From IMG/VR virus record IMGVR_UViG_3300036770_008714, positions 1 through 58,393 of that record: 58,393 bases of DNA. The stretch is one strand, 5' to 3'. Under the pieces are notes generated by a model. The model saw nothing but the letters and a program-made list of their open reading frames with translations, was not told the DNA's origin and did no database searches. The DNA is from a virus (taxonomy: Duplodnaviria > Caudoviricetes). Shown piece after piece: positions 16,069 to 57,948 of this stretch (position 1 is its first letter; every line of letters starts with the position of its first letter). The position numbers and the translations under genes are program-made.

Positions 16069-16247
16069 GAATGATTCCTGGCTCAACTTTACCAGTGCTG
16101 CGATCAATCTTGCGCCCCGCCACCCTTTGCGTTTACACTGGCGCTGTCCTTTCGGGGATGCGGGCTTGGCGGCCCGGAAAACACCCTGCGGCATAAAGCC
16201 GCTTCGACACCGCAGTCAGCGGCTTTTTTCATTCCTTGGCGCCCCAG

Positions 16248-16335
16248 TTTAGGCGGCCCAGGTGGGGAGCCGAAAGGCTCGCCGGTTTCTGCTCCGCAGG
16301 GTGCCCGGTCCGCCAACCCGCCTGGGCTGCCGCCT
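16248..16335 (+). ncRNA. C4-type antisense RNA (P1 c4 / P4 CI family)
   Basis: GGGGAGCCGAAAGGCTCGCCGG...CCGGTCCGCCAACCC core; loop CCGCCAA (16310-16) complementary to TTGGCGG at 16166-72 and 16338-44; CCGCAGGGTG complementary to CACCCTGCGG (16182-91). Confidence 0.8.
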
Positions 16336-16386
16336 TCTTGGCGGAAGGCAGCAGCAGTTCAACCGTCTGCACCCAAGGAGCCGACC

Positions 16387-27311: not shown

Positions 27312-29399
27312 TCAAACGATCACGCCATCGGCTTCTGGCGTCTCAATCCCGGCCTGAAACCCAATGTCAGGGCTGGCCGGTGTGGTTGGGTCTGTGTTCG
27401 AAGGGAATGGGTCAACAGGCGGCGCGGCCATGGCGGCTTCAGCCAGTTGCGGCACGATGGTCCCGCCGTTCTGATCCTTGAATCCCACGGATGCGGCCAA
27501 CTCGTCGGCCAGCGGCGCGGTCTGCGGGATGGTGGCCAGCACCTGGGCGGTCTGGGCGGCGCTGTAAAGCGTTTCCATGTCCGTGTTCGTGGCGTCGGAG
27601 TCGGCCTTGCGTGCCTGGGCCATGGTGAGCTGGGCGCGCGCTTCAGCTTCTGGGTCAGGCGGCGGGGCACCGGCTCCGGCCATCTGCTCCATGAGTTCGT
27701 GCTTGTCCGTCAGGTTGGAGTAGCGCAGCGCTGCCGTTGGTGGCAGCTGCACTCCAGCCTTCATCAGTTCGATGACCTGCTGGAACTGGCTGTTCTCAAA
27801 CGTCACCTGCATCGGCTGCTCGGTGATGACCACGTCGTATTCGCCCACCGTGACGTCGTACAGGTAAGAACCAGTTTCCGGGTCGAACTTGTTGATCTCC
27901 AGAATCTCTTCCTTCGGCTTGCCGGTCTTGGGGTCTGTCTCGGTGATGCGAAAGACGCGGTAGCTGTCGTAGTAGCGCTGGATCAGCTTCAGGATGCGGG
28001 CAGCCAATAGCTGGCGGGTGTATGCCAGGTTGTCCAATGGGACGGCCAACTGCTGCTGGCTTGCGAACTGCTTGGCCTGGATGGCTACGCCGCTGCTCTC
28101 GGGCCCTTGCTGGCCGCGCATTGCCTCGGGCACCGTCACGTCTTTGAGGGCCTTGGTCGCGCGGTCGATCAGCTTGTCAACGCCAGTCGGGATCTGGTTG
28201 GGCAGGATCTTCTCGGGTTTCGCGGTCCCCTTCTGGAACTCGATCACCAACCCTGTCTTGGCGCCCAATTCCTCAAGATCCTCGACGGTCATGTTTGTGA
28301 GGCTGTTTTCCTCCACGATCCAGCCGCTGTTGGCGCTGGTGTTGATGATGTGGATGTATTGGCTGACGGCCTTGTTCAGGGCCTCTTGTGGGCCAATGGC
28401 GTCATCCACCATGCCACGGGTCATGCCGCGCCGAAAGTAGGCGAAGTAAGGGACGACCGTGAAGTGGTCGTAGGGGCTGTAGCCTTCGTGCAGAGTGGTG
28501 CTGAATGTGCTGACCACCCACTTGATGCGTCGGCGCATGCGCTTGGCCTTCACCGCGCCCTTGTTCAGAGCATCGGCTACCGATTCCTCGGACATGTTGG
28601 CCATGATGATGATGTCCCCGCTCTCGGGATACACCAGGCAATCGGTCTTTTCGAACACCGCGATCTGGCGGTCGATGACGCGATAGCGCTGCATCCCGTC
28701 GCCGCCCATGGTGAAGGCGTCGTATAGGCCGACATTGCGGTCGCTGCCGAACTTGTTGCGGCGGACTTCGTCGTCCGTCTCTCCGTAGTCCTGGCCTTCG
28801 TCGCCGGATGCCGCCGCCTTGTCGCGCGCCTCCTTGCCCCACAGCTGCTCGATCTCGTCCAGCGTCAGCCAGCGTGAAACCGTGACATCACCCCACTTGT
28901 CTGGGTCGTAGCTCTTGGCGTCTGGGTCTGGGATGACGTCGCGCGGGTCCAGCCCAAAGATCGTGACATCGCCTTTCATGTTGCGGTCGAAGTCCATGCG
29001 GATGTCGTAGTAGCCGCGCTGCTCGATCAGGCCGTCGCTGTACACCTGCGTCTCCAGCCAGTGCAGCTTTGTGCTGTCGGCGATCTGCATAGCCACCTTG
29101 GACAAGATCGTTGCCGTGTTCAGGTCGCCTTGTTCACCGCGCGGTTTGAACGCGATGTCCATGCGGTTCTGGATCTGGTAGCCGATGGCGCTGTTCACGC
29201 TTGGCTTGACCTCGTTGAACTCGTAGAACGGCCGCCCCTGGGAACGCAGGATGTCCTTGTCCACATCGCTCCACTGCAGCCCGCCACCCATGTACATGCG
29301 CTGGCAGAGTTCCGCCTGCTCGGTGTACTCGATGTGCCCACGGTCCTTGCCGTACTGGTAGCGAGCCCAGTTTTCGCGCGCGCTTTGGTCGTTTGCCAT
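27312..29399 (-). CDS. Portal protein (P22-like)
   Basis: GLQWS...GRP...N.VKPSVNS..G, VIPDPDA, SGVAIQAKQ, DVTVGEYDVVI; between terminase and scaffold. Confidence 0.9.
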   Translation of the reverse strand: MANDQSARENWARYQYGKDRGHIEYTEQAELCQRMYMGGGLQWSDVDKDILRSQGRPFYEFNEVKPSVNSAIGYQIQNRMDIAFKPRGEQGDLNTATILSKVAMQIADSTKLHWLETQVYSDGLIEQRGYYDIRMDFDRNMKGDVTIFGLDPRDVIPDPDAKSYDPDKWGDVTVSRWLTLDEIEQLWGKEARDKAAASGDEGQDYGETDDEVRRNKFGSDRNVGLYDAFTMGGDGMQRYRVIDRQIAVFEKTDCLVYPESGDIIIMANMSEESVADALNKGAVKAKRMRRRIKWVVSTFSTTLHEGYSPYDHFTVVPYFAYFRRGMTRGMVDDAIGPQEALNKAVSQYIHIINTSANSGWIVEENSLTNMTVEDLEELGAKTGLVIEFQKGTAKPEKILPNQIPTGVDKLIDRATKALKDVTVPEAMRGQQGPESSGVAIQAKQFASQQQLAVPLDNLAYTRQLLAARILKLIQRYYDSYRVFRITETDPKTGKPKEEILEINKFDPETGSYLYDVTVGEYDVVITEQPMQVTFENSQFQQVIELMKAGVQLPPTAALRYSNLTDKHELMEQMAGAGAPPPDPEAEARAQLTMAQARKADSDATNTDMETLYSAAQTAQVLATIPQTAPLADELAASVGFKDQNGGTIVPQLAEAAMAAPPVDPFPSNTDPTTPASPDIGFQAGIETPEADGVIV

Positions 29400-40343: not shown

Positions 40344-40353
40344 GGCTCTTAAT

Positions 40354-40390
40354 ACCGATTTCGGTTTGAGTGTGCCATACCGTTTACGGT
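40354..40390. promoter_or_regulatory. OR operators, two ACCG-N4-CGGT palindromes
   Basis: ACCGATTTCGGT (40354-65) and ACCGTTTACGGT (40379-90). Confidence 0.85.
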
Positions 40391-40413
40391 TTGACAAGCA
40401 GAACAATGTCCGC

Positions 40414-41875: not shown

Positions 41876-41946
41876 GCCCGCCCGGATTGGGCGCAATTCC
41901 CGTTGGACTACGTATGCATGTACGTATTCGGAGTTGTATTTTACAT

Positions 41947-41986
41947 ACCGATTTCGGTTGCGCAAACATACCGTTATCGGTACAGT
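41947..41986 (+). promoter_or_regulatory. PL promoter with two OL operators
   Basis: TTGCGC-N17-TACAGT overlapped by ACCGATTTCGGT (41947-58) and ACCGTTATCGGT (41970-81). Confidence 0.85.
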
Positions 41987-42816: not shown

Positions 42817-43101
42817 ATGACAACCAAACACAGCGCCGGACCATGGGAGCAGTTCATGGCGTCCTGCGCAAACGGCGACAAAACGCCAGCGATCAAAAGC
42901 ACTCGCTCGGGTGCTTGTGTGGGCTACCCGGCAGGCTCAACGGATGAAGAAATTGCCGCGAACTGGGCAATCCAAACCCTGGCCCCGCAAATGCTGGAGG
43001 CTTGCGAGTTCATGCTGAAGCACGCATTTGAACGGAAGTGGGAAGGCGACGAACAGGCCTACGGAATGTTGAGCCGCATCGTGCGGGCTGCAAACGCGTA
43101 A
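42817..43101 (+). CDS. Hypothetical phage protein (HxxGPW family)
   Basis: KHSAGPW...AAN...LAPQMLEAC. Confidence 0.7.
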   Translation: MTTKHSAGPWEQFMASCANGDKTPAIKSTRSGACVGYPAGSTDEEIAANWAIQTLAPQMLEACEFMLKHAFERKWEGDEQAYGMLSRIVRAANA

Positions 43102-43161
43102 CCCCAACCCATACCCCACCAGCGCCTCAGAGGCGCTTTGTTTTTAACTAGGAGATAAAGC

Positions 43162-43395
43162 ATGCAAAAAACCAGTTTTCTAATCGCCGCAATTGGCGCC
43201 AATCACGCAGTGCTTGCGCAGTGTTTCGCGAACACAGAATCTGATGCGTGCAAGGCTATTGCCGCCCTGTTCTTGGACGACAAGGGCGCTCAAGCAACCG
43301 AAATTGCGTGCATAGATACGGGCGCAATGCCTGGTTTGTGGATGCCTGCTGACCCGCAATATCTGCGAGGGCAAATTGCCAACGCGAAGCAATAG
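43162..43395 (+). CDS. Hypothetical protein
   Basis: AGGAG SD. Confidence 0.6.
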   Translation: MQKTSFLIAAIGANHAVLAQCFANTESDACKAIAALFLDDKGAQATEIACIDTGAMPGLWMPADPQYLRGQIANAKQ

Positions 43396-43470
43396 CCAGC
43401 CACCCACCCCCCACCCCACAGGCTATCCAGGGGTGATTGCTTTGATGGGCGGCGAAGGGTGATGCGTAGT

Positions 43471-43607
43471 GGGCCGCGCAGGTTGCACGGTTGCTGGCCG
43501 ACATGTTGCCCAGGGTTGCTCCTGGGCGGCTAAGACGGGTGGACTATTTGATCAACAGTCCGAGAAATCCAGCGAGGTTGGGGGTTCGATTCCCCTGCGG
43601 TCCACCA
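43471..43607 (+). ncRNA. tmRNA-like / alanine-identity tRNA-like RNA (137 nt)
   Basis: Acceptor GGGCCGC/GCGGTCC with G3.U70, A73, CCA; T-arm GGGGG-TTCGATT-CCCCT; helix TTGCTGG/CCAGCGA enclosing a 71-nt insert. Confidence 0.65.
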
Positions 43608-43664
43608 CACATCATCTTGCCCGCCCATCAAAGCATTCACCAATCAACGAACAGGAGAGAGAGT

Positions 43665-43910
43665 ATGAAAGAAGGTCAGAAAGTTTGGCTGGTCAAGTAC
43701 GCGCTTACTACGGGGATCACGGAAGAAGTCGTCCGGTCAGCAAATGGGGAATTCGCATATATGGAAAACCGAAGCTGGAATTCCTACAAGTCGGGACGCG
43801 ATGTTTTCACTGACTACGGCGATGCAGTAAAAGCAGCCGAGGCGCTGCGCCAAAAGAAGCTCGGCAGCCTGCGCAAGCAATGTATGAAGCTGGAGAAGCT
43901 CAAATTCTGA
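43665..43910 (+). CDS. Hypothetical phage protein
   Basis: VWLVKYALTTGI...KKLGSLRKQ..KLE; AGGAG SD. Confidence 0.75.
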   Translation: MKEGQKVWLVKYALTTGITEEVVRSANGEFAYMENRSWNSYKSGRDVFTDYGDAVKAAEALRQKKLGSLRKQCMKLEKLKF

Positions 43911-43996
43911 GGCGACTCCACAGGCTGCGGTATCGCGGCTGGTGCGGATGGAAGCTCCGACAACCTCCTGGGTGAAAGGCCCCAGGGCCACCATTG

Positions 43997-44057
43997 AAGC
44001 CGCGCGGCGGGACGCTAATAACTTAAGAGAGACTGGGTTCAACTCCCAGGCGGCTTC
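43997..44057 (+). ncRNA. tRNA-like module lacking an anticodon arm
   Basis: AAGCCGC/GCGGCTT stem plus CTGGG-TTCAACT-CCCAG T-arm. Confidence 0.45.
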
Positions 44058-44060
44058 AAT

Positions 44061-44130
44061 GGTGGTGAAGTGCGAGAGATGCATTCGGCTGCATAAGCCG
44101 TTGCAGCCCGTTCAACTCGGGCCACCACCA
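44061..44130 (+). tRNA. Degenerate tRNA or tRNA-like gene (ambiguous CAT or GCA loop)
   Basis: GGTGGTG/CACCACC acceptor, GCCCG-TTCAACT-CGGGC T-arm, short D-arm, CGGC-TGCATAA-GCCG arm lacking U33. Confidence 0.5.
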
Positions 44131-44177
44131 ACCCACCCTAGCCGCCCTCTGAGGCGGCTTTTTCATGGAGAAACAAC

Positions 44178-44453
44178 ATGCGCAATTTTTCATGGGGCAA
44201 GGTGCTAGAGCGCTTTGAGTACGACTTTGACGGCGAGCAAGTTGAGGTTGTGAAGTATTTGCCGACCAAGTTTATCGATGGCAGCGCCGTGCGGGGTGAA
44301 TGGGAAAGCGAGCCCATGTTTCACATTGCCGCAATTCATCAATCCTTTAGTTCTTTGGACGCGGCGCTTATCGCAAGCATCGCGAACAAGCGTCTTGGGC
44401 TCAACCAGTACGCACTTGTAGCTGGTGTCTGCAGGGCGCTTGGGATCGACTAA
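44178..44453 (+). CDS. Hypothetical protein
   Basis: GGAG SD; flanked by hairpin/T-tract spacers. Confidence 0.7.
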   Translation: MRNFSWGKVLERFEYDFDGEQVEVVKYLPTKFIDGSAVRGEWESEPMFHIAAIHQSFSSLDAALIASIANKRLGLNQYALVAGVCRALGID

Positions 44454-44492
44454 CACAGCCCGCTTAGTCGGGCTTTTTTCATGGAGGCAGCA

Positions 44493-44750
44493 ATGACAGA
44501 AGCAAATGCACCAAAGGACGCAGCGAAGCGTCTTGAACCCAAGCAGCGCCTGATGGAACGCATGCGTACAAGCATTGTTGACCAGGGCAGCTACGGCATC
44601 CGGCAAACAGCCATTTGGGAAAAGGCTTATGCCCGCGCAGCTCGTTTTGTGAAGCGCGAGTTGCCAACGCAGCGCACGCTGAAAAATCTCATTAGCCAGC
44701 TAGATGCAGCGCATGCGTGGAAGCACGAACCAGACCAGGAACCTTCATGA
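44493..44750 (+). CDS. Hypothetical protein
   Basis: GGAGG SD. Confidence 0.65.
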   Translation: MTEANAPKDAAKRLEPKQRLMERMRTSIVDQGSYGIRQTAIWEKAYARAARFVKRELPTQRTLKNLISQLDAAHAWKHEPDQEPS

Positions 44751-56191: not shown

Positions 56192-56959
56192 ATGAAAGAA
56201 CGCCCTATTCTGTTTAGCGGCGCCATGGTCCGCGCGCTGTTGGATGGCAGCAAGACGCAGACGCGGCGGGTCATGAATCGACAACCACCAGAAGGGTGCG
56301 GCATCCACTACATGCTGGGCGATGAATCCTGGATGCCAGAGGACAAGCGCACGCCGCTGCGCCATCACTGGGAAGCCTGGGGCGGCCCTTTGTATGAGCA
56401 GCGCCCAGATGGACACCTTTGCGGCACTCACTCCGTGCGCTGTCCATACGGTGCTCCCGGCGACCGTCTTTGGGTCCGCGAGACCTTCTTCGCCTGGGGC
56501 CGCTGGGAGACACGATTCAGCGCCAAAAAGGGCCGCGATGAGTGGCATTTCGTCGACATGACCGCTGAATCCTATAACGGCTACCTGTATGCCGCCGATG
56601 GCGTCAGAGACACGCAGGCCTTCATCAAGCGCCGATCGGACCCCAAGCCGATGTATTGGAAGCGCCCCGCGATCTTCATGCCACGAGCCGCCAGTCGTAT
56701 CACCCAGGAAATCACCGAGGTGCGAGTGGAACGCCTGCAGGACATCAGCGAAGCTGATGCGAGCGATGAAGGCGTGCGCCAGTTGCGCGATGAAAGTGGC
56801 TGCTGGGCAGGGCGCGAAGGACCGGGAAATTTAATCACCCCATGGCCGACAGCGCTTGAGGCATTCAGAGATATATGGGAATCCATCAACGGCCCCGACA
56901 GCTGGGACGAAAACCCATGGGTTTGGGCAGTCGAATTCAAGCCACCCACCACCGCCTAA
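56192..56959 (+). CDS. ASCH-like phage protein
   Basis: ERPILFS..MVRALLDG.KTQTRR...LWVRET...MPR.ASRI...VERLQDIS...NPWVW. Confidence 0.8.
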   Translation: MKERPILFSGAMVRALLDGSKTQTRRVMNRQPPEGCGIHYMLGDESWMPEDKRTPLRHHWEAWGGPLYEQRPDGHLCGTHSVRCPYGAPGDRLWVRETFFAWGRWETRFSAKKGRDEWHFVDMTAESYNGYLYAADGVRDTQAFIKRRSDPKPMYWKRPAIFMPRAASRITQEITEVRVERLQDISEADASDEGVRQLRDESGCWAGREGPGNLITPWPTALEAFRDIWESINGPDSWDENPWVWAVEFKPPTTA

Positions 56960-57015
56960 CAGGCAAACACACCACACCAGGGCTCCGAGAGGGGCCTATT
57001 TTTTTAGGACCACTC

Positions 57016-57948
57016 ATGTTCAAAAACCTCATCATCTATCGCATCGCTCCCGGCTTCATGGCAACCGTCGCGCAAGTGGAAGAAGCATTGGCCAAGGCTC
57101 CATTCATGGAGTGCGGAGCCACGCAGGAGAAGTCTATGGGCTGGACTCCGCCGCGAGGTGAGGCCCACGGCGCCATGGTGGAGAGCATTGGCGGCCAATT
57201 GATCGCCCGCTTCATGGTCGAATCCAAAGTGCTGCCCGCCAGCGTGCTGGCCCGCCGCGTGAAGGAAAAGGCCGAGCGGATCGAGCAGGAAACCGGCCGC
57301 AAGCCCGGCAAGAAGGAAAGCAAGGAGCTCAAAGACGAGGCCAAGCTCGACCTGTTGCCCATGGCCTTCACCAAGCAGGGCTCGATGTGGGTGTGGATCG
57401 ACACTGCCTCGCGCCTGCTGGTGCTGGACACCTCCAGCCAGGGCCGCGCGGACGAAGTGGTCACCCTGCTGGTTGAGGCGCTGCCCGGCCTGTCAGTGTC
57501 GCTGCTGAACACCCAGACCAGCCCGCAGGCCGCCATGGCCCACTGGCTCAAGGAAGACCACGACAACCTCTATGTTGACCACAACTTCACCGTTGGACGC
57601 GAGTGCGAGCTCAAGAGCACCAGCGAGGAAAAGGCCGTTGTTCGCTACGGGCGCCACCCGCTGGACATTGAGGAAGTCCAAGCCCACATCGACGCAGGCA
57701 AGCTGCCAACGCGCTTGGCAATGACCTGGGATGACCGGGTTTCGTTCCTGCTTACCGATGGCCTACAGGTGCGCAAGCTGCAGTTCTTGGATGCGGTATT
57801 TGAAGGCACCAAGTCTGACGACGGTGGTTTTGACACCGATGTGGCGATTGCCACCGGCGAGCTGGTCAAGCTGATCCCGGACTTGATTGAAGCGCTGGGC
57901 GGGGAAGCAGAGAGCGGCTTGGCTGGCTCTGGGGCCAGTGCGTCATGA
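57016..57948 (+). CDS. rdgC: Recombination-associated protein RdgC
   Basis: MFKNLIIYR...SMGWTPP...KVLPASV...LLPMAFT...ALGGE. Confidence 0.93.
   Translation: MFKNLIIYRIAPGFMATVAQVEEALAKAPFMECGATQEKSMGWTPPRGEAHGAMVESIGGQLIARFMVESKVLPASVLARRVKEKAERIEQETGRKPGKKESKELKDEAKLDLLPMAFTKQGSMWVWIDTASRLLVLDTSSQGRADEVVTLLVEALPGLSVSLLNTQTSPQAAMAHWLKEDHDNLYVDHNFTVGRECELKSTSEEKAVVRYGRHPLDIEEVQAHIDAGKLPTRLAMTWDDRVSFLLTDGLQVRKLQFLDAVFEGTKSDDGGFDTDVAIATGELVKLIPDLIEALGGEAESGLAGSGASAS

What the first reader, a model, noticed from the sequence alone, without database searches (positions are those of the whole stretch)
43432..43641. Mini-tmRNA-like RNA with alanine identity inside an RNase III-type precursor stem
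Seen: GGGCCGC (43471-77) pairs with GCGGTCC (43597-603), giving G3.U70, followed by A and an encoded CCA. A canonical T-arm (GGGGG-TTCGATT-CCCCT) precedes it. A 13-nt D region lacks a proper stem. A 7-bp helix TTGCTGG/CCAGCGA replaces the anticodon arm and encloses a 71-nt insert with two hairpins (43505-30, 43541-61). The unit is clamped by a 21-bp one-mismatch inverted repeat (43432-52 / 43621-41) that extends inward. Established: G3.U70 plus A73 is the AlaRS determinant, and this geometry is that of the tmRNA tRNA-like domain, but tmRNA is about 360 nt with pseudoknots. Inference: an early phage RNA that is alanylated and acts as an SmpB or EF-Tu decoy, a minimal ribosome-rescue RNA, or bait for tRNA-targeting defences. 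Speculative: one insert frame reads PTCCPGLLLGG-stop (43498-43533), tag-sized but ending GG rather than AA.
Basis: partly seen in the sequence, partly recalled or inferred. Interest (0 to 1): 0.88.

Follow-up and report, generated by a model that had tools for sequence, protein, structure and literature searches.

The report
Clamped anticodon-less alanine-type tRNA mimic
A prophage of a Comamonadaceae-type bacterium carries, between two small early genes, a conserved RNA that keeps the acceptor end, T-arm and CCA of an alanine tRNA but has no anticodon arm, and it sits inside a stem that related phages wrap around quite different small RNAs.

Summary

It is not a tRNA, tmRNA or Y RNA by any model:
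- ARAGORN finds nothing.
- The tRNA model scores 17.1 bits against a 29-bit cut-off.
- The tmRNA model scores 13.3 bits, on the T-arm only. The known "TLD-only" tmRNA of mycobacteriophage DS6A scores 43.2 bits.
- YrlA, TROVE and SmpB are not found.

Two homologues exist.
- L009 is near-identical but has different flanking genes.
- L213 is diverged and lies beside an HNH endonuclease gene.
- Both keep the acceptor stem, G3:U70, A73, CCA and T-loop. The T-stem shows two compensatory pair changes.
- The D region and the tag-like ORF are not conserved.

The outer 21-bp repeat is not private to this RNA. It closes 32 distinct elements, of which only 2 (this one and L009) have a tRNA-like interior.

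Best reading: a non-decoding, probably alanine-accepting tRNA mimic carried as one interchangeable cassette of a mosaic early operon. Its target is unknown.

Earlier notes of this scan describe similar clamp-with-variable-body RNAs in other phages.

The parts
43432..43452 (+). 5' arm of the family-wide clamp
   Evidence: Its 18-nt core is identical in 25 distinct elements from viral, genome and metagenome contigs. Contigs of all 4 laid runs cover it, while the interior is replaced in them.
43453..43470 (+). Leader strand of the RNA's own extension helix; pairs with 43604-43620, including across ACCA
   Evidence: MFE fold. Kept in L009 and in L213, which lacks the family clamp. Contains G:U pairs, which fit an RNA helix on the + strand.
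43471..43477 (+). Acceptor stem, 5' strand
   Evidence: Invariant in 3 of 3 homologues. The first 6 bp are identical to a host-family tRNA-Ala(CGC).
43478..43490 (+). D-region analogue, 13 nt
   Evidence: Read. Not conserved in sequence in L213, where it is 14 nt and different. A 3-bp mini-hairpin is possible in each, but the two cannot be aligned.
43491..43497 (+). 5' strand of the 7-bp helix that stands where the anticodon stem would be (partner 43569-43575)
   Evidence: 7 of 7 pairs in the window and L009, 6 of 7 in L213.
43505..43530 (+). Insert hairpin 1
   Evidence: One compensatory pair in L213. Its tip resembles the 3'-terminal hairpin of clamp members L008 and L114.
43541..43561 (+). 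Insert hairpin 2 (5-bp stem, 11-nt loop)
   Evidence: One C-G to U-G change in L213. The 3' part of the loop is invariant.
43549..43573 (+). 25-nt stretch invariant in all three homologues (hairpin-2 loop and 3' strand, linker, start of the helix 3' strand)
   Evidence: Alignment A1.
43569..43575 (+). 3' strand of the 7-bp helix
43576..43579 (+). 4-nt variable-region analogue
   Evidence: A different 4 nt in L213.
43580..43596 (+). T-arm
   Evidence: Canonical loop. Two compensatory pair changes in L213. The only part matched by the tmRNA model, at 13.3 bits.
43597..43603 (+). Acceptor stem, 3' strand, with U70
   Evidence: Invariant in 3 of 3.
43604..43607 (+). Discriminator A73 and encoded CCA
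   Evidence: Invariant in 3 of 3. Paired with the leader in the predicted precursor, apart from one A:C mismatch.
43608..43620 (+). Trailer strand of the extension helix
43621..43641 (+). 3' arm of the family-wide clamp
   Evidence: Most members have a T:T mismatch in the arm; the window has T:A at that place and a mismatch elsewhere.

Best explanation
The locus encodes a non-decoding tRNA mimic: a 137-nt RNA with a complete acceptor/T-arm minihelix of alanine type (G3:U70, A73, encoded CCA). It has a short D analogue. In place of the anticodon arm there is a helix bearing two hairpins.

It is transcribed on the + strand as part of the prophage's early rightward operon. It lies inside a long leader-trailer helix. 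In this phage and in L009 that helix is further closed by a clamp which related phages use around unrelated small RNAs.

Inferred, not shown: the helix is cut (RNase III type), host tRNA-end enzymes finish the ends, and the product engages a host factor that reads the tRNA acceptor end. Candidates are AlaRS and then EF-Tu, or a defence or toxin enzyme acting on CCA ends. It cannot decode. At the DNA level it behaves as one interchangeable cassette of a highly mosaic early region.

Conservation in three contexts:
- The window and L009 carry it inside the clamp but have different flanking genes.
- L213 carries it without the clamp, next to an HNH_3/AP2 ORF.

Alignment A1 and RNAalifold:
- 52 pairs are predicted. 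3 have compensatory changes, 2 of them in the T-stem. 7 have one-sided changes that keep the pair.
- The acceptor stem, G3:U70, A73, CCA and T-loop are invariant.

Other points:
- The first 6 acceptor base pairs equal a host-family tRNA-Ala(CGC).
- G3:U70 is described as the major AlaRS determinant in the abstract of PMC6451123. The abstract of PMC11392972 describes alanylation assays on acceptor/T-arm minihelices (both seen in the listing).
- The G:U pairs fit the + strand, and 20 of 25 clamp elements fold better on the gene strand.
- Operator-like repeats at 40352-40391 and 41945-41982 and the run of same-strand small ORFs place it in an early operon.
- Cassette behaviour: in contigs of all 4 laid runs, only the intergenic borders of this region match. 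The genes and the RNA interior are replaced.
Against: - There is no expression or end-mapping data. The only runs were contigs, which cannot show RNA ends.
- Only 3 homologues were found, and 2 of them are near-identical, so the covariation rests on one diverged sequence.
- In the predicted precursor the ACCA is base-paired to the leader within a helix of about 29-46 bp. That should hinder RNase P and leave no free CCA unless the helix is cut and opened.
- The core alone is no more stable than shuffles (z -0.4 to -1.8).
- In L213 the MFE of the insert differs from that of the window.
- The D region is not conserved, so a tRNA-like elbow is not assured.
Confidence: 0.5

Rival explanations
1. 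A tmRNA-type tRNA-like domain without the mRNA part, like the 'TLD-only' tmRNA of mycobacteriophage DS6A. It would bind SmpB (and EF-Tu if charged) and so inhibit or replace host trans-translation during infection.
For: - The geometry equals a tmRNA TLD: 7-bp acceptor with G3:U70, a 13-nt unpaired D analogue, a helix starting at position 21, a 4-nt linker, T-arm, ACCA.
- Precedent from passages read in PMC4131195: DS6A carries little more than the TLD, and a similar molecule strongly inhibits tmRNA, perhaps by titrating SmpB. The paper credits this to Mao et al. 2009, which I did not read.
- The T-arm and 3' end are 88% identical over 33-34 nt to a host-family tmRNA.
Against: - RF00023 matches only the T-arm at 13.3 bits, while DS6A's 83-nt TLD scores 43.2 bits over the whole model.
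- The mt-tmRNA model gives no match.
- A profile of 30 Comamonadaceae tmRNA 5' ends gives no hit at 43471 even at E < 100.
- The D region is nearly invariant among those tmRNAs and, by recalled knowledge, forms part of the SmpB site. Here it differs between the window and L213.
- No SmpB gene is in the window.
- The tag-like ORF is not conserved.
Confidence: 0.15
2. A purely cis-acting processing signal ('tRNA punctuation'). The tRNA-like fold and its long stem recruit RNase P/Z and RNase III to cut the early polycistronic mRNA between genes, and the released RNA has no job of its own.
For: - It is strictly intergenic, between 43162-43395 and 43665-43910.
- The next intergenic region holds further tRNA-like units. 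One matches the mascRNA model at 26.9 bits, E = 0.0016, below the 42.5-bit cut-off.
- Real tRNAs lie directly downstream of the clamp in L007 and L013.
- The same phage has a C4 antisense RNA. By recalled literature, P1/P7 C4 is matured by RNase P.
- M. smegmatis YrlA shows that a 7-bp acceptor-like stem suffices for RNase P cleavage (PMC4201824, passages).
Against: - A 25-nt stretch of the insert (43549-43573) is invariant across all three homologues while the D region and hairpin 1 vary. A cleavage signal would not need that.
- G3:U70, A73 and CCA are kept, although RNase P does not need G3:U70.
- The ACCA is paired with the leader.
Confidence: 0.2
3. A decaying tRNA or tRNA-Ala/tmRNA fragment trapped in a recombination-prone linker, with no function.
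For: - Neither the tRNA nor the tmRNA model reaches its threshold.
- It is rare: only 2 other copies were found by 4 pattern scans of viral contigs.
- The region is mosaic.
Against: - The T-stem changes are compensatory, and all identity elements are kept in a copy that has diverged elsewhere.
- It is present in three different gene contexts.
Confidence: 0.08
4. A DNA-level element: inverted repeats acting as a recombination or transposition site (MITE-like or attC-like), with any RNA fold incidental.
For: - The arms are conserved and the interiors are swapped among phages.
- A 21-nt identity to the 5' arm occurs in a multi-copy element of Giesbergeria and Simplicispira genomes.
Against: - G:U pairs and the strand asymmetry of folding favour RNA.
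- The 3'-terminal hairpin of the clamp family covaries: 81.3% of cells paired against 69.6% in shuffles, 0 of 500 shuffles as high.
- No recombinase or other protein is consistently linked; the best cluster is in 6 of 17 loci.
- The integrase lies about 43 kb away, at 1-1029.
Confidence: 0.04

Closest known systems
TLD-only tmRNA of mycobacteriophage DS6A (JN698994, 28478-28560; Hudson, Lau and Williams 2014, PMC4131195)
   Same: Both are phage-borne. Both have a 7-bp acceptor with G3:U70 and A73, an unpaired D analogue of about 13 nt, a helix instead of an anticodon arm, a T-arm and no tag reading frame.
   Different: DS6A is recognisably homologous to tmRNA, at 43.2 bits with RF00023. The window element is not (13.3 bits, T-arm only). 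The window element has a 71-nt two-hairpin insert, an encoded CCA, a 29-46 bp leader-trailer helix and a non-conserved D region.
tRNA-Ala(CGC) of Comamonadaceae and acceptor/T-arm minihelices
   Same: The first 6 acceptor base pairs, G3:U70, A73 and CCA are the same. The 3' 35-36 nt are 86% identical to tRNA-Ala(CGC) genes of the sampled host family.
   Different: There is no D-arm and no anticodon arm. The tRNA model gives 17.1 bits against a 29-bit cut-off, and only by using an alternative 5' strand. ARAGORN does not call it.
YrlA / bacterial and phage Y RNAs (RF02553; Chen et al. 2014, PMC4201824)
   Same: Both are small RNAs whose two ends form a conserved closing stem around a tRNA-like module. 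Some are phage-encoded and can be cut by RNase P.
   Different: In YrlA the closing stem stands at the anticodon side and there is no free CCA end (recalled). Here the stem prolongs the acceptor stem. There is no YrlA model match and no TROVE/Ro60 gene in the window.
mascRNA/MEN-beta tRNA-like 3'-end processing modules (RF01684)
   Same: An anticodon-defective tRNA-like fold embedded in a longer transcript. The neighbouring unit at 43997-44056 matches this model weakly.
   Different: That family is eukaryotic, and the match is sub-threshold and by shape only. The finding itself does not match it.

Membership tests
tmRNA (RF00023), including TLD-only forms | Acceptor stem with G3:U70, discriminator A73, 3' CCA | tested here: met
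   Invariant in 3 of 3 homologues.
tmRNA (RF00023), including TLD-only forms | Conserved D-loop analogue sequence at the 5' end | tested here: not met
   The length fits (13 nt). An nhmmer profile of 30 host-family tmRNA 5' ends gives no hit at 43471 at E < 100. The region differs between the window and L213.
tmRNA (RF00023), including TLD-only forms | Covariance-model score comparable to accepted members | tested here: not met
   13.3 bits on the T-arm only, against a gathering score of 47. The DS6A TLD-only form scores 43.2 bits. mt-tmRNA RF02544 gives no match.
tmRNA (RF00023), including TLD-only forms | mRNA-like domain with a conserved tag reading frame and pseudoknots | tested here: not met
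ARAGORN finds no tmRNA. No pseudoknot-forming segments were seen in the 71-nt insert (which cannot predict pseudoknots).
tmRNA (RF00023), including TLD-only forms | Alanylation and SmpB binding | not testable with these tools
   Needs biochemistry. No phage SmpB gene was found.
tRNA (RF00005) | Cloverleaf with D-arm and a 7-nt anticodon loop; model score at least 29 bits | tested here: not met
   17.1 bits for 43524-43604. ARAGORN finds 0 genes. tRNA-Sec scores 17.8 bits against a cut-off of 47.
YrlA / Y RNA (RF02553) | Model match and a neighbouring Ro60 (TROVE) gene | tested here: not met
   No match at E <= 10. No TROVE match at E <= 1.
Uncatalogued clamp-closed RNA cassettes of Comamonadaceae-type phages (defined here) | Conserved pair of 18-21 nt arms closing the element | tested here: met
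   Both arms are present. The same arms close 32 distinct elements.
Uncatalogued clamp-closed RNA cassettes of Comamonadaceae-type phages (defined here) | Covarying 5-bp hairpin stacked directly on the 3' arm | tested here: not met
   The hairpin is present and covaries in the 16 members tested. In the window and L009 the clamp instead continues into the RNA's own helix.

The most novel reading that the evidence does not exclude
The phage makes an alanine-charged mini tRNA-like domain that is convergent with tmRNA rather than homologous to it. With EF-Tu and host SmpB, this RNA enters or blocks stalled ribosomes. Alternatively it soaks up a defence enzyme that attacks tRNA CCA ends. On this reading, the clamp family as a whole is a phage 'expression cassette' system that delivers many different decoy RNAs from one early transcript.
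Probability: 0.12. Interest if true: 0.85.

Novelty: new variant of a known kind. Interest (0 to 1): 0.6.

Why it matters
Phage tRNA mimics that cannot decode are poorly understood. A conserved mimic that keeps exactly the alanine identity set and an encoded CCA is a concrete, testable candidate for interference with charging, with ribosome rescue, or with defences that target tRNA ends.

The finding also exposes a family of stem-clamped RNA cassettes that is absent from Rfam 15. Its interiors are swapped among phages of wastewater, groundwater and biofilm samples. Together with the conserved intergenic borders, this shows how an early "accessory" operon is built from interchangeable modules.

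Tried and rejected
Searches that found nothing or little:
- BLAST of the element and of 12 kb around it against 50,697 phage records gave no match.
- The exact 28-mer of the 3' end had 0 hits in viral contigs. L009 differs by one base there.
- Neighbour-gene searches: the upstream 77-aa protein has no relative. The downstream 81-aa protein has one relative (L004, 71% identity) with no such RNA upstream.
- BLAST of the element against 401 genomes of the family of Acidovorax facilis: 91 genomes matched, but only with short partial matches (19-66 nt), chiefly to the T-arm/3' end, and those checked by ARAGORN lie in tRNA-Ala(CGC), tmRNA, tRNA-Trp, tRNA-Arg and tRNA-Leu genes. No homologue was found in those searched.
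- No Rfam family matches the clamp elements, at gathering score on 9 loci or at E <= 1 on 7 loci.
- No protein family travels with the clamp. The best cluster is in 6 of 17 loci.

Hypotheses rejected:
- A resemblance of the D region to one tmRNA (L145) looked suggestive by eye. The profile test did not support it.
- attP/att remnant: the integrase is at 1-1029 and the record is a provirus, so the att sites are at its ends.
- Retron ncRNA: no conserved neighbouring protein. No specific reverse-transcriptase search was run.
- Tag peptide.

Sequencing runs:
- All runs are contigs, so nothing can be said about transcription, RNA ends or abundance. Parts without cover are not evidence.
- One X3 contig joins the window at 43582. 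Just before that it carries letters that share part of the invariant insert motif, so it may be a fourth variant. I could not fetch it.
- Habitat labels of runs with small word shares that I did not lay (X4-X7, X9-X16, X18-X20) are not used.
- I did not test covariation of the clamp arms themselves, because my searches fixed one arm exactly.
- Supplementary files of the papers were not opened.

Full report
1. What is there.

The window is a 58,393-bp provirus record of IMG/VR with about 60% G+C. An integrase gene lies at its left end (1-1029). The replicative helicase is nearest to those of Ralstonia and Burkholderia phages, at about 38% identity.

From about 42.1 kb rightward, a run of small + strand ORFs follows two pairs of operator-like 15-mers at 40352/40377 and 41945/41968. 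The finding lies in the 269-nt gap between ORFs 43162-43395 and 43665-43910.

The unconstrained fold of 43425-43650 gives the same architecture, with z = -7.0 and 0 of 200 shuffles as stable.

From outside inward, the architecture is:
- a clamp, 43432-52 with 43621-41;
- a further leader-trailer helix, 43453-70 with 43604-20, which also pairs the ACCA apart from one A:C mismatch;
- a 7-bp acceptor stem with G3:U70;
- a 13-nt D analogue;
- a 7-bp helix enclosing 71 nt with two hairpins;
- four nucleotides;
- a canonical T-arm.

2. What it is not.

- ARAGORN calls nothing in the window.
- At gathering scores, Rfam 15 finds only a C4 antisense RNA at 16246-16337.
- At E <= 10, the best hit on the finding is tRNA-Sec at 17.8 bits.
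- Scored singly, the tRNA model gives 17.1 bits against a cut-off of 29, using an alternative 5' strand at 43524.
- The tmRNA model matches only the T-arm, at 13.3 bits.
- The mt-tmRNA and YrlA models give nothing.
- No TROVE or SmpB gene is present.

As a yardstick, the literature names a phage "TLD-only" tmRNA in mycobacteriophage DS6A (PMC4131195, passages read; repeated in PMC11915505). In the DS6A record, the tmRNA model finds it at 28478-28560 with 43.2 bits over the whole model. A true TLD-only tmRNA is therefore recognisable, and this element is not.

The D region looked similar by eye to one Comamonadaceae tmRNA. However, a profile of 30 tmRNA 5' ends from that family gives no hit at 43471. 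The 3'-end profile does hit 43580-43607 as the best place in the window, E = 0.015. Any alanine-type 3' end would give that result.

3. Relatives of the tRNA-like RNA.

Four pattern scans of viral contigs found two relatives.

- L009 (10651-10868, minus strand) differs by a few substitutions and a 3-nt insertion. It lies between different genes.
- L213 (1702-1870, minus strand) is clearly diverged and lacks the family clamp. It has its own leader-trailer helix of about 22 bp.
- In L213 the RNA lies between a 188-aa ORF and an ORF with an HNH_3 domain (53.9 bits) plus a sub-threshold AP2 domain.

In the three-way alignment (A1):
- The acceptor stem, G3:U70, A73, CCA, the T-loop and a 25-nt stretch of the insert (43549-43573) are invariant.
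- RNAalifold predicts 52 pairs. Three have changes on both sides that keep the pair: T-stem 49:65 and 50:64, and one pair in hairpin 1.
- Seven have one-sided changes that keep the pair (for example G:U to G:C), and seven are broken in one sequence.
- The D region is not conserved, and the helix 43491-97/43569-75 has one mismatch in L213.
- The frame that reads as a possible tag in the window has other residues and no stop in L213.

That is not what is seen. The evidence is thin, because it rests on one diverged copy.

4. Origin of the acceptor end.

Against 401 genomes of the family that holds Acidovorax facilis, the element matches only in short pieces, chiefly its T-arm/3' end:
- 86% over 35-36 nt to tRNA-Ala(CGC);
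- 88% over 33-34 nt to tmRNA;
- 96% over 24 nt to the T-arm of tRNA-Trp.

The acceptor stem equals that of a tRNA-Ala(CGC) except for pair 7:66, which differs on both sides. AlaRS identity rests mainly on G3:U70 (abstract of PMC6451123). Acceptor/T-arm minihelices are used as alanylation substrates (abstract of PMC11392972). Both were seen in the listing. Chargeability with alanine is therefore plausible, provided a free CCA end is made.

5. The outer stem is a shared clamp.

Contigs of four public runs were laid on 43000-44600: biofilm, wastewater, a wastewater RNA library and groundwater. They match only the intergenic borders (43114-57, 43404-52, 43618-60, 43915-93, 44120-70, 44454-95). The genes and the interior 43453-43617 are replaced by other letters. 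For example, one contig has 135 letters between 43452 and 43619 where the window has 166.

Fetching loci by an 18-mer of the 5' arm and by a 17-mer of the 3' arm gave 34 unique sequences with both arms. Two of these are reverse readings of perfect-arm copies, which leaves 32 distinct elements of 92-225 nt.

- Only the window and L009 have a tRNA-like interior.
- Named hosts are Acidovorax facilis (L022) and Azohydromonas sediminis (L047, cut by a contig end).
- Most other genome hits to the 18-mer are chance or coding matches, for example in what looks like the ATP synthase a-subunit gene (by eye).
- L014 has two clamp elements about 320 nt apart.
- L007 and L013 have real tRNA genes just downstream (tRNA-Arg-TCT and an odd tRNA-Lys-CTT).

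Many members share a 5-bp hairpin stacked on the 3' arm. On 16 of the 21 distinct 3' segments:
- 81.3% of cells pair, against 69.6% in shuffles (0 of 500 as high);
- 9 cells carry double changes, against 3.0 expected (0 of 500);
- slid controls give at most 55% paired.

20 of 25 elements fold better on the gene strand. No Rfam family matches them, and no protein gene is consistently adjacent. The clamp is thus a feature of an uncatalogued RNA family, and the tRNA mimic is one of its cargoes. L213 shows that the mimic also exists outside the clamp.

6. Mechanism.

Shown:
- a conserved, strand-specific fold with an alanine-type acceptor/T-arm minihelix and no decoding part;
- an intergenic place in an early operon;
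- cassette-like exchange.

Inferred:
- excision from the transcript by cuts in the long helix;
- end maturation by tRNA enzymes;
- charging by AlaRS;
- action in trans on a factor that reads tRNA acceptor ends.

The weak point is that the ACCA is paired in a long helix, which should impede RNase P unless the helix is first cut and opened.

The tmRNA-type reading (SmpB titration, as proposed for DS6A-like molecules) remains possible by analogy of shape. It has no support from homology or from D-region conservation. A purely cis-acting processing signal is the main alternative. The invariant 25-nt insert segment argues for something more than a cleavage signal.

7. Novelty.

Phage tRNA-like RNAs and a TLD-only phage tmRNA are in print, so the kind is known. 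This variant combines an alanine-type acceptor end, a two-hairpin insert and a long sealing helix inside a shared clamp. I found no description of this variant or of the clamp family in Rfam 15 or in four full-text searches. These searched for terms, not sequences, and cannot exclude a description under another name.

Earlier AI notes of this scan describe comparable clamp-with-variable-body RNAs in other, unrelated phages. They are leads, not evidence.

Noticed in passing
window 43911-44177: The next intergenic region holds further tRNA-like units. One, at 43997-44056, matches the mascRNA model (26.9 bits, E = 0.0016, below the cut-off) and is sealed by a perfect 16-bp inverted repeat (43988-44003 / 44050-44065). 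An intrinsic terminator follows at 44140-44159. In the records of L009 and L015 only the borders of this region (43915-91 and 44122-74) are kept, and the middle is replaced.
   Followed up: partly
window 43000-44600: Only the intergenic borders, including the terminator-like hairpins at 43121-37 and 44140-59, are shared with contigs of four metagenome runs. The genes between them differ. The early operon is thus an array of interchangeable cassettes joined by conserved linkers.
   Followed up: partly
window 16246-16337: C4 antisense RNA (RF01695, 57.7 bits), the immunity RNA type of P1/P7-like phages.
   Followed up: no
L023, L032, L039, L049, L051, L053, L058, L064 (Giesbergeria and Simplicispira genomes): A multi-copy element, probably an insertion sequence, contains a 21-nt stretch identical to the 5' arm of the clamp and its first inner bases. 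No 3' arm follows it.
   Followed up: no
L213 926-1423 and 1876-2442 (minus strand): The clamp-less homologue of the RNA is flanked by an HNH_3 plus AP2-like ORF and by a 188-aa ORF whose C-terminus looks HNH-like by eye but has no Pfam match.
   Followed up: partly
window 40352-40391 and 41945-41982: Two pairs of 15-nt operator-like repeats bracket the 40.3-42.0 kb segment, which is probably the immunity/early promoter region.
   Followed up: no
L013 4109-4191; L004 about 2930-2975: An atypical 83-nt tRNA-Lys(CTT) call (tRNA model 35.3 bits) lies just downstream of a clamp element in L013. By eye, a similar T-arm/3' end lies upstream of the L004 homologue of the 81-aa gene.
   Followed up: no
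window 56875-57945: A full-length RdgC-family protein (347.8 bits) at the right end of the early operon.
   Followed up: no
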